From assembly GCF_044324875.1 (NCBI RefSeq), contig NZ_CP172185.1: a stretch of DNA of 64,000 nucleotides; one strand, given 5' to 3'. This document shows positions 43,120 to 46,238 of this stretch, piece after piece. The notes beneath the pieces are model-generated. The model was not told the origin of the DNA and ran no database searches. It saw nothing but the letters and a program-made list of their open reading frames with translations. Source of the DNA: Escherichia coli (GTDB taxonomy: Bacteria > Pseudomonadota > Gammaproteobacteria > Enterobacterales > Enterobacteriaceae). The stretch's first letter is position 1; each line of letters starts with the position of its first letter. The translations under genes and the position numbers were made by a program.

Positions 43120-45098
<1,979 letters not shown>

Positions 45099-45100
<2 letters not shown>

Positions 45101-46238
45101 GTCAGAGCCCCTCGATCTCAATCAGTTAGCGCAAAAAATTAAACAGTGGGGGCTGGAACTGGGCTTTCAGCAGGTAGGTATTACCGATACCGATCTCAGC
45201 GAGTCCGAGCCCAAACTGCAAGCATGGCTGGACAAACAATACCACGGAGAAATGGACTGGATGGCGCGTCACGGTATGCTGCGCGCTCGCCCCCATGAGT
45301 TATTGCCCGGTACGCTGCGCGTGATCAGCGTGCGGATGAATTACCTTCCTGCTAACGCCGCATTTGCCAGCACGCTGAAAAACCCTAAGCTCGGCTATGT
45401 GAGCCGTTATGCGCTGGGCCGTGACTATCACAAACTTCTGCGCAACCGACTCAAAAAGCTGGGCGAGATGATTCAGCAACATTGTGTTTCGCTGAATTTT
45501 AGACCGTTTGTCGATTCTGCGCCTATTCTCGAGCGCCCGTTAGCTGAAAAAGCTGGGCTCGGCTGGACAGGTAAGCACTCACTTATCCTCAATCGCGAGG
45601 CCGGTTCATTCTTCTTTTTAGGCGAATTGCTGGTCGATATTCCGCTGCCCGTGGATCAACCAGTCGAGGAAGGATGCGGTAAATGCGTGGCCTGTATGAC
45701 GATTTGCCCGACCGGAGCCATCGTCGAGCCATATACCGTCGATGCTCGCCGCTGTATCTCTTATCTCACCATCGAACTGGAGGGGGCGATCCCGGAAGAG
45801 TTGCGACCGTTAATGGGAAACCGTATTTACGGTTGCGATGACTGCCAGCTTATCTGCCCGTGGAATCGCTATTCGCAACTCACTACAGAAGACGATTTCA
45901 GCCCGCGTAAGCCGCTACACGCACCGGAACTCATTGAGTTATTCGCCTGGAGTGAAGAGAAGTTTTTAAAAGTCACGGAAGGTTCGGCGATTCGCCGTAT
46001 AGGTCACCTGCGTTGGCTGCGTAATATCGCCGTAGCATTAGGCAATGCCCCCTGGGATGAAACGATTTTGACAGCGCTGGAAAGTCGTAAAGGTGAGCAC
46101 CCACTTCTCGATGAGCACATAGCGTGGGCGATTGCGCAGCAAATCGAGAGGCGAAATGCGTGCGTGGTCGAAGTGCAATTACCGAAAAAACAGCGTCTGG
46201 TTCGGGTGATTGAAAAAGGGTTACCGCGTGACGCCTGA
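45099..46238 (+). CDS. queG: Epoxyqueuosine reductase QueG (YjeS)
   Basis: Track ORF 44991..46238; start at [18 protein letters not shown] gives 379 aa; 4Fe-4S Cys motifs (CGKCVACMTICP, CDDCQLICP). Confidence 0.9.

What the first reader, a model, noticed from the sequence alone, without database searches (positions are those of the whole stretch)
45085..45101. Divergent nnr and queG start codons overlap within a CATG tetranucleotide
With the K-12-length starts (Nnr 515 aa, QueG 379 aa) the two divergent genes begin at 45100 (minus) and 45099 (plus), sharing 2 bp. No intergenic region exists, so both promoters must lie inside the partner's coding sequence. If nnr instead starts at the next Met (45085) the gap is still only about 14 bp.
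Basis: partly seen in the sequence, partly recalled or inferred. Interest (0 to 1): 0.35.

Follow-up and report, generated by a model that had tools for sequence, protein, structure and literature searches.

The report
Head-to-head overlapping nnr and queG starts
Two E. coli housekeeping genes that point away from each other really do begin inside the same four bases (CATG), so each gene's on-switch is written inside the other's first codons; this is real and conserved, but already annotated and already listed as overlapping divergent transcription.

Summary
CATG lies at 45098-45101. The nnr ATG runs 45100->45098 (minus) and the queG ATG runs 45099-45101 (plus), sharing 2 bp. K-12 RefSeq and PGAP annotate the same starts.

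The starts look genuine. The CATG overlap occurs in 27 of 32 Enterobacterales species with adjacent nnr. In Yersinia, Serratia and Rahnella these ATGs are the only in-frame start candidates. The nnr ATG at 45100 has a conserved Shine-Dalgarno (GAGGGG, -7.2 kcal/mol). The second Met (45085) has none and is not conserved.

- The queG TSS is near 45075, 24 nt upstream of its ATG, in nnr codon 9.
- The nnr operon TSS is near 45488, 388 nt upstream of its ATG, in queG codon ~130.
- The two transcripts overlap by 413 nt and form RNase III-cleaved dsRNA.
- ExcludonFinder (2025) lists queG-nnr among 16 divergent excludons in MG1655.

New here: the control elements are hard-wired into the partner's codons. 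These codons are nucleotide-invariant across 15-17 Enterobacteriaceae species: AGT-ATA-CCA (= TGGTATACT), AAT-TTT-AGA (= TAAAAT) and Pro4 CCC (= the SD).

The translation starts have not been confirmed experimentally, and no regulatory effect has been shown. Verdict: real, tidy, already known, of modest interest.

The parts
45098..45101 (.). CATG tetranucleotide that holds both start codons. The nnr ATG reads 45100->45098 on the minus strand and the queG ATG reads 45099-45101 on the plus strand, sharing 2 bp.
   Evidence: sequence and ORFs. Same annotation in K-12 and GN25. Conserved in 27/32 Enterobacterales loci, plus Tolumonas and one MAG.
43553..45100 (-). nnr (yjeF) CDS, 515 aa plus stop. 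Bifunctional NAD(P)HX epimerase/dehydratase and first gene of the nnr-tsaE-amiB-mutL-miaA-hfq... operon.
   Evidence: NCBIfam NF007856 equivalog, 1020 bits, residues 1-509. Pfam YjeF_N and Carb_kinase. Annotation.
45099..46238 (+). queG (yjeS) CDS, 379 aa plus stop. tRNA epoxyqueuosine(34) reductase.
   Evidence: TIGR00276 equivalog, 510 bits. Annotation. ATG 45099 is the only in-frame start candidate in many orthologous loci.
45108..45113 (-). Shine-Dalgarno GAGGGG for the nnr ATG at 45100, with a 7-nt spacer. It is encoded on the opposite strand by queG codons 3-5, including the invariant Pro4 CCC.
   Evidence: Anti-SD duplex of -7.2 kcal/mol against a window background mean of -2.2 (5th percentile -6.3). 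Conserved at -4.5 to -12.2 across the Enterobacterales loci (-4.3 in Tolumonas). Pro4 CCC is invariant in 17 species.
45083..45085 (-). Alternative in-frame nnr ATG (Met6). Judged unlikely to be the main start.
   Evidence: SD duplex of only -3.2 kcal/mol. Position 6 is M/V/L/E/K/N/R in orthologues. It is used only in one frameshifted MAG, L017.
45059..45067 (+). Extended -10 element TGgTATACT of the queG promoter. It is exactly nnr codons 12-14 (AGT ATA CCA = Ser-Ile-Pro) read on the other strand.
   Evidence: Sequence. Nucleotide-invariant in 15 Enterobacteriaceae species, and the only run of invariant codons in nnr codons 1-200 (permutation p = 0.0013). TGnTAnACT-like elements are kept at the same distance even in Photorhabdus, where nnr is not adjacent. 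It lies within the published delta-PqueG deletion, 45039-45069.
45075..45098 (+). queG 5' UTR of about 24 nt, U-rich, with no Shine-Dalgarno. The TSS is near 45075, inside nnr codon 9.
   Evidence: The Conway overlap ends at U00096.2 position 4392114, which is window 45075. p19 reads in queG sense reach window 45082 (U00096.2 4392107). SD duplex of -2.2 kcal/mol, i.e. background level, across the order.
45496..45501 (-). -10 hexamer TAAAAT of the upstream nnr-operon promoter. It is embedded in queG codons 133-135 (AAT TTT AGA, Asn-Phe-Arg).
   Evidence: Sequence. It ends 7 nt before the published TSS. The three codons are nucleotide-invariant in 17 Enterobacteriaceae species, whereas other families use CGN for this Arg.
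45101..45488 (-). nnr 5' UTR of 388 nt, antisense to queG codons 1-130. The TSS is near 45488.
   Evidence: Conway promoter at U00096.2 position 4391701, which is window 45488. No Rfam family matches, and the fold z-score of -1.6 is not significant.
45075..45488 (.). Region transcribed on both strands (413-nt 5' overlap). It forms dsRNA in vivo.
   Evidence: Lybecker dsRNA MS-212 at 4391717-4392100. p19 clusters at 4391754-4392109. The Conway overlap is 413 nt. p19 duplex reads cover the nnr SD (45102-45122) and both ATGs (45080-45101). Listed as a divergent excludon.

Best explanation
This is a genuine, evolutionarily fixed head-to-head overlap of two real start codons in E. coli. The control regions of the two genes are interleaved inside each other's first codons.

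queG side. queG is transcribed from an extended -10 promoter, TGgTATACT (45059-45067), that is literally nnr codons 12-14. Transcription starts near 45075, giving a 24-nt U-rich 5' UTR with no Shine-Dalgarno, and translation starts at ATG 45099.

nnr side. The most upstream promoter of the nnr-tsaE-amiB-mutL-miaA-hfq operon uses the TAAAAT -10 at 45501-45496, inside queG codons 133-135. Transcription starts near 45488, giving a 388-nt leader antisense to the first third of queG. Translation starts at ATG 45100, using the GAGGGG Shine-Dalgarno that queG codons 3-5 encode on the other strand.

Consequence. The two mRNAs are complementary over about 413 nt, including both ribosome-binding sites. 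They pair in vivo and are cut by RNase III. RNA polymerase coming from the nnr promoter must also run head-on through the queG promoter.

The most likely functional outcome is mutual dampening of queG and of nnr/tsaE expression from the upstream promoter, that is, a divergent excludon acting by transcriptional interference plus antisense occlusion and cleavage of the RBSs.

Shown: the sequence anatomy, its conservation, the codon-level constraint, and (from published data) the transcript ends and the dsRNA.
Inferred: which ATG the ribosome uses, and any regulatory effect.
For: Anatomy and annotation.

Start codons:
- The CATG with an in-frame MTDH-type Nnr N-terminus occurs in 27/32 Enterobacterales loci.
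- It is the only in-frame start candidate for both genes in Mangrovibacter, Serratia, Yersinia and Rahnella.
- The SD for ATG 45100 is -7.2 kcal/mol and conserved, against -3.2 for ATG 45085.

Transcript ends:
- Conway places the promoter at 4391701 with a 413-nt overlap, Lybecker maps dsRNA at 4391717-4392100, and p19 clusters lie at 4391754-4392109.
- The coordinates transfer exactly to the window.
- -10 elements sit 7 nt upstream of both mapped 5' ends.
- The delta-PqueG allele deletes 45039-45069.

Excludon listing.

Selection on the embedded elements:
- Synonymous diversity is 0.075 in queG codons 1-10, against 0.44-0.46 averaged over the rest of the gene.
- In nnr codons 1-200, the only invariant degenerate codons are 2, 4, 12, 13 and 14 (p = 0.0013).
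- queG codons 133-135 are invariant (p = 0.00035 for the two runs of three invariant codons in queG).
- The invariant codons include ones that are rare in E. coli: ATA, AGA and CCC (codon rarity is from general knowledge).
- The 71-bp junction is identical in 5249/5425 E. coli genomes.
Against: - I found no direct experimental mapping of either translation start. The Ribo-RET supplement is not held, and the tetracycline-TIS and N-terminomics supplements do not mention these genes.
- The ATG of CATG is fixed by queG alone. Only the preceding C plus the reading frame speak for nnr, and that C is also present in Photorhabdus, where nnr is not adjacent.
- Position 6 of Nnr is ATG, GTG or TTG in most Enterobacteriaceae, so some initiation there cannot be excluded.
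- The Conway 5' ends derive from RNA-seq and may be off by a few nt. Window 45075 is a T, so a neighbouring G is more likely as the +1 base.
- Synonymous constraint is confined to discrete elements. Codons 1-130 of queG as a whole score 0.439, against 0.463 for the rest, so nothing shows that the long antisense pairing itself is selected.
- No experiment shows reciprocal regulation. The delta-PqueG strain was assayed only for datA phenotypes.
Confidence: 0.8

Rival explanations
1. Nnr is really made from the second ATG (45085; MKKNP...). The CATG overlap would then be an annotation artefact of taking the longest ORF, and the genes would be separated by 13 bp.
For: An in-frame ATG exists at 45085. 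The equivalent codon is ATG, GTG or TTG in most Enterobacteriaceae. In MAG L017 a 1-nt frame shift makes it the only usable start. Residues 1-11 lie outside the widely conserved YjeF_N domain: TIGR00197 starts at residue 17. Long divergent overlaps are usually 5'-extension misannotations.
Against: The SD pairing upstream of 45085 is weak (-3.2 kcal/mol, close to the background mean of -2.2), whereas 45100 scores -7.2 and is conserved. Position 6 is E, K, N or R in Cedecea, Serratia, Yersinia, Rahnella, Hafnia and others, where the CATG ATG is the only start upstream of the conserved S-[IL]-P-H motif. The frame and the MTDH/MTGH residues are conserved across families.
Confidence: 0.12
2. The overlap and the embedded promoters are real, but the antisense overlap has no regulatory role. 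The arrangement would be genome compaction frozen by the cost of disentangling dual-coded elements, and the dsRNA would be a by-product cleared by RNase III.
For: Constraint on synonymous sites is limited to the -10 elements, the SD and the start region. The 388-nt overlap as a whole is not more conserved than the rest of queG: 0.439 against 0.463. The downstream operon genes have their own promoters (8 promoters in the operon). Pectobacterium, Brenneria and Dickeya separated the genes by about 140-200 bp. Conway et al. themselves note that conservation says nothing about function.
Against: Close head-to-head spacing (0-100 bp) persists well beyond Enterobacterales, in Alteromonadales, Aeromonadales and some Vibrionales. 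This locus is among the top 20 coding dsRNA clusters in stationary phase. Excludon pairs as a class show reduced co-expression in single cells. None of this evidence is specific to the queG-nnr pair.
Confidence: 0.4
3. The queG start is mis-set, and the true QueG begins downstream, which would open an intergenic gap.
For: QueG residues 1-13 lie outside the TIGR00276 model, which starts at residue 14. There is no Shine-Dalgarno before ATG 45099.
Against: The N-terminus MS[EQ]PLDLNQLAQ is conserved across Enterobacterales. ATG 45099 is the only start candidate in many species, and the next Met is about 50 codons downstream, inside the TIGR00276-modelled region of QueG. The mapped 5' end lies 24 nt upstream of this ATG.
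Confidence: 0.03

Closest known systems
Divergent excludons: overlapping 5' transcripts of divergent operons (concept from Listeria, Sesto et al. 2013; E. coli catalogues by Conway 2014, Lybecker 2014, Huang 2020 and ExcludonFinder 2025)
   Same: Adjacent genes on opposite strands, each with its TSS upstream of the partner's. The 413-nt complementary 5' regions form dsRNA that RNase III cuts in vivo. This very pair is listed: queG-nnr is one of the 16 divergent excludons of MG1655.
   Different: Typical excludon pairs have an intergenic region (mean 95 nt in E. coli). Here there is none and the CDSs themselves overlap, so both RBSs and both start codons lie inside the duplex. Reciprocal repression has not been shown for this pair.
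Divergent (head-to-head) overlapping genes in prokaryotic annotations (Palleja et al. 2008; Johnson and Chisholm 2004)
   Same: Two CDSs on opposite strands that share their 5' ends. This is the rarest orientation class, about 1% of overlaps (457 of 42,055).
   Different: All divergent overlaps longer than 60 bp examined there were start-codon misannotations. This overlap is only 2 bp, and by the orthologue-length criterion it is not a misannotation.
Classical divergent overlapping promoters in E. coli (ilvY-ilvC, argECBH; cited in Conway 2014)
   Same: Back-to-back control regions with overlapping transcription from divergent promoters (references 17 and 18).
   Different: Those promoters lie in a shared non-coding regulatory region with known regulator sites. 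Here the promoters, the SD and the UTRs are all dual-coded inside protein-coding sequence, and no regulator is known.
Noncontiguous operon (Saenz-Lahoya et al. 2019)
   Same: ExcludonFinder lists yjeV-queG-nnr as one of three noncontiguous operons in MG1655. Transcription on the nnr strand from upstream of queG reads antisense through queG into nnr.
   Different: Not examined here. The 388-nt-leader promoter inside queG is sufficient to explain the 5' overlap.

Membership tests
Head-to-head (divergent) CDS overlap, genuine rather than misannotated | The two ORFs on opposite strands share bases at their annotated 5' ends. | tested here: met
   CATG lies at 45098-45101 and the shared bases are 45099-45100. 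The annotation is the same in K-12 and GN25.
Head-to-head (divergent) CDS overlap, genuine rather than misannotated | The N-termini are not longer than those of orthologues, and the start codons are conserved (the Palleja criterion). | tested here: met
   27/32 Enterobacterales loci share the same starts. They are the only start candidates in Serratia, Yersinia, Rahnella and Mangrovibacter.
Head-to-head (divergent) CDS overlap, genuine rather than misannotated | A translation-initiation signal sits at each start. | tested here: inconclusive
   nnr has a conserved SD of -7.2 kcal/mol. queG has none (-2.2, background level) and relies on a U-rich 24-nt leader.
Head-to-head (divergent) CDS overlap, genuine rather than misannotated | The protein N-termini or initiating ribosomes have been observed experimentally. 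| not testable with these tools
   No entry for nnr or queG was found in the TIS or N-terminomics supplements that are held.
Divergent excludon | Each gene's TSS lies upstream of the partner's TSS, so the 5' transcript regions are complementary. | tested here: met
   Published 5' ends at 4391701 (+) and 4392114 (-) give a 413-nt overlap. They map to window 45488 and 45075. Matching -10 elements are present in the sequence. The basis is literature data plus sequence, not a new experiment.
Divergent excludon | dsRNA is formed in vivo and processed by RNase III. | tested here: met
   Lybecker dsRNA MS-212 and p19-captured 21-22-nt duplexes on both strands were re-mapped to window 45080-45318. The basis is literature data.
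Divergent excludon | Expression of one gene lowers expression of the other (mutual exclusion). | not tested
   No pair-specific experiment was found. The single-cell evidence applies only at the class level.
Embedded (intragenic) sigma-70 promoter | A -10 element at the proper distance from a mapped TSS, with sequence constraint beyond what the protein needs. | tested here: met
   TGgTATACT and TAAAAT each end 7 nt before a mapped 5' end. The codons carrying them are nucleotide-invariant while neighbouring synonymous sites vary. The simple consensus scan missed both because their -35 hexamers are poor.

The most novel reading that the evidence does not exclude
The queG-nnr junction may be an ancient reciprocal antisense switch, selected across Enterobacterales and with near-zero spacing in other Gammaproteobacteria. 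Each mRNA would mask the other's ribosome-binding site. This would couple queuosine tRNA maturation (queG) inversely to the upstream-promoter output of the nnr-tsaE (t6A) -amiB-mutL-miaA-hfq operon. The need to keep promoter and SD elements on the opposite strand would explain the frozen rare codons (ATA, AGA, CCC) and the otherwise unexplained Ser-Ile/Leu-Pro-His motif at the Nnr N-terminus.
Probability: 0.2. Interest if true: 0.45.

Novelty: already known. Interest (0 to 1): 0.25.

Why it matters
The locus is a clean, conserved example of how far bacterial gene packing can go. There is no intergenic DNA at all, and two promoters, a Shine-Dalgarno and two UTRs are written inside protein-coding codons of the opposite strand.

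It is a practical warning for genome engineering and codon optimisation:
- Deleting or recoding the first ~15 codons of nnr removes the queG promoter.
- Recoding queG codons 3-5 or 133-135 hits nnr's SD or its promoter. Changes at the nnr end also risk polar effects on tsaE, which is essential (from general knowledge).
- Published nnr::kan and delta-PqueG alleles necessarily affect both genes.

It also shows that rare codons can be held in place by signals on the other strand. It does not open a new biological question, because the overlap is annotated and the overlapping transcription is catalogued.

Tried and rejected
- The consensus promoter scan of 44600-45600 found nothing. Both promoters have poor -35 hexamers, so the scan's rule of at least 4 of 6 matches per hexamer excludes them. 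I did not take this as evidence of absence.
- I looked for experimental translation-start data. The Ribo-RET preprint has no supplement held. The TRAINSPOTTER N-terminomics supplements and the tetracycline-TIS supplements do not mention nnr, yjeF, queG or yjeS.
- I looked for further TSS tables. The Conway supplements are not held, Thomason 2015 is not in the library, and the Cappable-seq supplements have no coordinates in this range.
- The PDB holds no E. coli Nnr structure, only T. maritima, B. subtilis and other homologues, so it gives no construct or N-terminus information.
- I considered a cis-regulatory RNA in the 388-nt nnr leader. There is no Rfam hit, and the fold z-score of -1.56 is not significant.
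- I considered a 60-aa ORF (45482->45300, minus strand) that starts 6 nt after the nnr TSS. It is interrupted by stop codons, and its ATG is replaced by GTG or CTG, in Citrobacter, Enterobacter and others. Rejected as coding.
- I considered the TTG at 45121 as an nnr start. It has no SD (+1.3 kcal/mol), and in Yersinia, Serratia and Rahnella no in-frame start candidate exists upstream of the CATG ATG. Rejected.

Full report
**Where the window comes from.** The region 44700-45500 matches 5425 of 5426 complete E. coli genomes. The best match is strain GN25 at 99.8%, and most genomes are about 97% identical. It aligns without gaps to K-12 MG1655, with window position = 4,439,166 minus the NC_000913.3 position. 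U00096.2 coordinates used in older papers are 1977 lower. I checked this offset by locating published 21-22-nt reads and primers in the sequence.

**The observation.**
- Bases 45098-45101 read CATG.
- ATG 45099-45101 on the plus strand opens QueG (379 aa, MSEPLDLNQ...).
- ATG 45100->45098 on the minus strand opens Nnr (515 aa, [10 protein letters not shown]...).
- A second in-frame Met begins at 45085.
- NCBIfam equivalogs confirm both identities: NF007856 at 1020 bits and TIGR00276 at 510 bits. Pfam agrees.
- K-12 RefSeq (queG 4392928..4394067 complement; nnr 4394066..4395613) and PGAP annotation of GN25 carry the same 2-bp overlap.

If nnr used Met6, the gap would be 13 bp.

**Are the two start codons real?** A scan of one genome per species with QueG returned 80 loci.
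- In 27 of the 32 Enterobacterales loci with adjacent divergent nnr, the queG ATG and an in-frame nnr ATG form the same CATG. These include Escherichia, Citrobacter, Enterobacter, Kluyvera, Cedecea, Mangrovibacter, Serratia, Yersinia, Rahnella, Pantoea, Hafnia, Budvicia, Acerihabitans and Edwardsiella. Tolumonas and one gammaproteobacterial MAG have it too.
- In Mangrovibacter, Serratia, Yersinia and Rahnella these two ATGs are the only in-frame ATG/GTG/TTG candidates upstream of the conserved protein regions.
- E. coli Met6 is not conserved. The position is M, V, L, E, K, N or R.
- The ATG at 45100 is preceded at 7 nt by GAGGGG (45113-45108). Its anti-SD pairing is -7.2 kcal/mol, against a window background mean of -2.2 and a 5th percentile of -6.3. 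The pairing is kept at -4.5 to -12.2 across the Enterobacterales loci (-4.3 in Tolumonas).
- ATG 45085 scores -3.2 and TTG 45121 scores +1.3.
- queG has no SD in any species (about -2.2). It has a U-rich leader instead.

Exceptions exist. Pectobacterium, Brenneria and Dickeya have a spacer of about 140-200 bp. One MAG (L017) has a frame shift that leaves only the second ATG usable. Outside Enterobacterales, where nnr is adjacent, spacing is mostly 0-100 bp.

Caveat: queG alone fixes the ATG of CATG. The case for nnr rests on the C, the reading frame, the SD and the lack of alternative starts. I found no direct translation-start data.

**Where the promoters are.**
- The supplement of Huang et al. 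2020 (PMC7373196) tabulates for this locus: the Conway et al. operon promoter at 4391701 (+), its terminator at 4408049, a divergent overlap of 413 nt (4391701-4392114), the Lybecker et al. dsRNA MS-212 at 4391717-4392100, and p19-captured clusters at 4391754-4392109.
- In window terms, the nnr-operon 5' end is at 45488. This gives a 388-nt leader and lies in queG codon ~130.
- The queG 5' end is at 45075. This gives a 24-nt leader and lies in nnr codon 9.
- The sequence fits both. TGgTATACT, an extended -10, lies at 45059-45067 and ends 7 nt before 45075. TAAAAT lies at 45501-45496 (minus) and ends 7 nt before 45488.
- Both promoters have poor -35 hexamers, which is why the simple scan reported nothing.
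- The Katayama-lab delta-PqueG allele deletes window 45039-45069, the segment containing the extended -10.
- Individual p19 duplex reads cover the nnr SD (45102-45122) and both start codons (45080-45101) on both strands. The two ribosome-binding sites are therefore inside dsRNA that forms in vivo.
- ExcludonFinder (PMC12288877) lists queG-nnr among the 16 divergent excludons of MG1655, and yjeV-queG-nnr as a noncontiguous operon.
- Conway et al. describe yjeF...rlmB as the most complex operon in their data set, with 14 genes and 8 promoters.

**New here: codon-level footprints of the embedded signals.** I compared the window with one genome each from 14-16 other Enterobacteriaceae species.
- Pairwise synonymous difference in queG is 0.44 over codons 1-130 and 0.46 over codons 131-379. 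It falls to 0.075 in codons 1-10, which sit opposite the nnr SD and start, and to 0.24 in codons 131-140.
- Only 14 of 379 queG codons are nucleotide-invariant. They include Pro4 CCC (the GGG of the SD) and the run Asn133-Phe134-Arg135, AAT-TTT-AGA, which contains the TAAAAT -10. Two runs of three invariant codons give a permutation p of 0.00035.
- Other families encode this Arg with CGN and lack the TAAAAT. This promoter position therefore appears specific to Enterobacteriaceae.
- In nnr codons 1-200, the only invariant degenerate codons are 2, 4, 12, 13 and 14. Codons 12-14 (AGT-ATA-CCA) are exactly the TGGTATACT element, with p = 0.0013. Residues 5-11 are hypervariable.
- TGnTAnACT-like elements persist at the same distance from the queG ATG even in Photorhabdus, where nnr is not adjacent. 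This argues that the promoter, not the Nnr protein, is what is conserved.
- ATA, AGA and CCC are rare codons in E. coli (general knowledge).
- Within E. coli, the 71-bp junction is identical in 5249 of 5425 genomes.
- The 388-nt overlap as a whole is not more constrained than the rest of queG (0.439 against 0.463). Selection is visible on the discrete signals, not on the antisense pairing itself.

**Mechanism.**
- Shown: the two CDSs abut head-to-head, each promoter lies in the partner's CDS, the transcripts overlap by about 413 nt, and they form RNase III-processed dsRNA.
- Inferred: polymerases from the nnr promoter collide with or occlude PqueG, and each mRNA can mask the other's RBS. This would give mutual dampening, i.e. 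a divergent excludon. No pair-specific regulatory experiment exists.
- The neutral alternative is compaction frozen by dual coding. I rate it at about 0.4 as a description of the overlap's (lack of) function. It is compatible with the anatomical explanation.

**Comparison with known systems and novelty.**
- Divergent CDS overlaps are the rarest overlap class, about 1% (457 of 42,055). Long ones are always misannotations. This overlap is only 2 bp and passes the orthologue test.
- The overlap is in the reference annotation, and the overlapping transcription is in at least four published catalogues. The finding is therefore already known.
- What this analysis adds is the phylogenetic depth of the CATG junction, the support for the 515-aa Nnr start, and the codon-level evidence for embedded promoter and SD elements.

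**Other checks.**
- No Rfam family matches in the nnr leader, and there is no significant structure.
- The 60-aa antisense ORF at the start of the leader is not conserved.
- No E. coli Nnr structure exists in the PDB.

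Noticed in passing
window 46240-46489: A cluster of DnaA boxes lies immediately downstream of the queG stop codon: 46240(+), 46252(-), a perfect TTATCCACA at 46414(-), and 46481(-). This is the datA locus, the DnaA-ATP-inactivating site described in PMC10950094. Window-wide, 22 boxes with at most one mismatch were found, against 11.8 expected.
   Followed up: partly
window 46221-46274 (minus): The 17-codon yjeV ORF (54 nt including its stop), annotated in K-12 and by PGAP, overlaps the 3' end of queG convergently by 18 bp. ExcludonFinder lists yjeV-queG as a convergent excludon and yjeV-queG-nnr as a noncontiguous operon.
   Followed up: no
window 46511-46927 (minus): Three tRNA-Gly genes (glyV/X/Y) lie at 46855-46927, 46622-46694 and 46511-46583. 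The spacer between the first two is 160 bp here and 157 bp in strain GN25, but only 36 bp in K-12. An insertion of about 124 bp of unknown nature is therefore present.
   Followed up: no
window 46089-46148 (queG codons 331-350): There is a second patch of suppressed synonymous variation (0.25 against 0.46). Codons 333-335 (GAG CAC CCA, 46095-46103) are nucleotide-invariant in 17 Enterobacteriaceae species. No element was identified there. It could be a signal on the opposite strand, for example for transcripts entering queG antisense from datA or yjeV.
   Followed up: no
window 45549-45578 (queG codons 151-160): Synonymous diversity is low here (0.26). The patch lies about 60-90 bp upstream of the nnr TSS. 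It could be an upstream promoter or regulator site for nnr. Not examined.
   Followed up: no
window 43553-43581: The nnr stop and the tsaE start overlap co-directionally by 29 bp (tsaE ATG at 43581, nnr stop ending at 43553). K-12 has the same arrangement. This is long for a same-strand overlap.
   Followed up: no
window 45300-45482 (minus): A 60-aa ORF begins 6 nt downstream of the mapped nnr TSS and runs antisense to queG. It is broken by stop codons in Citrobacter, Enterobacter and others, so it is not a conserved gene.
   Followed up: yes
L034-L036, L045, L060 (Moellerella, Photorhabdus): In these Morganellaceae-type genomes no nnr is found within 2.5 kb upstream of queG. An extended -10-like element (TGCTACACT in the two Photorhabdus loci examined, L035 and L036) nevertheless sits at the same distance from the queG ATG. 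The queG promoter therefore outlived the loss or relocation of its partner gene.
   Followed up: partly
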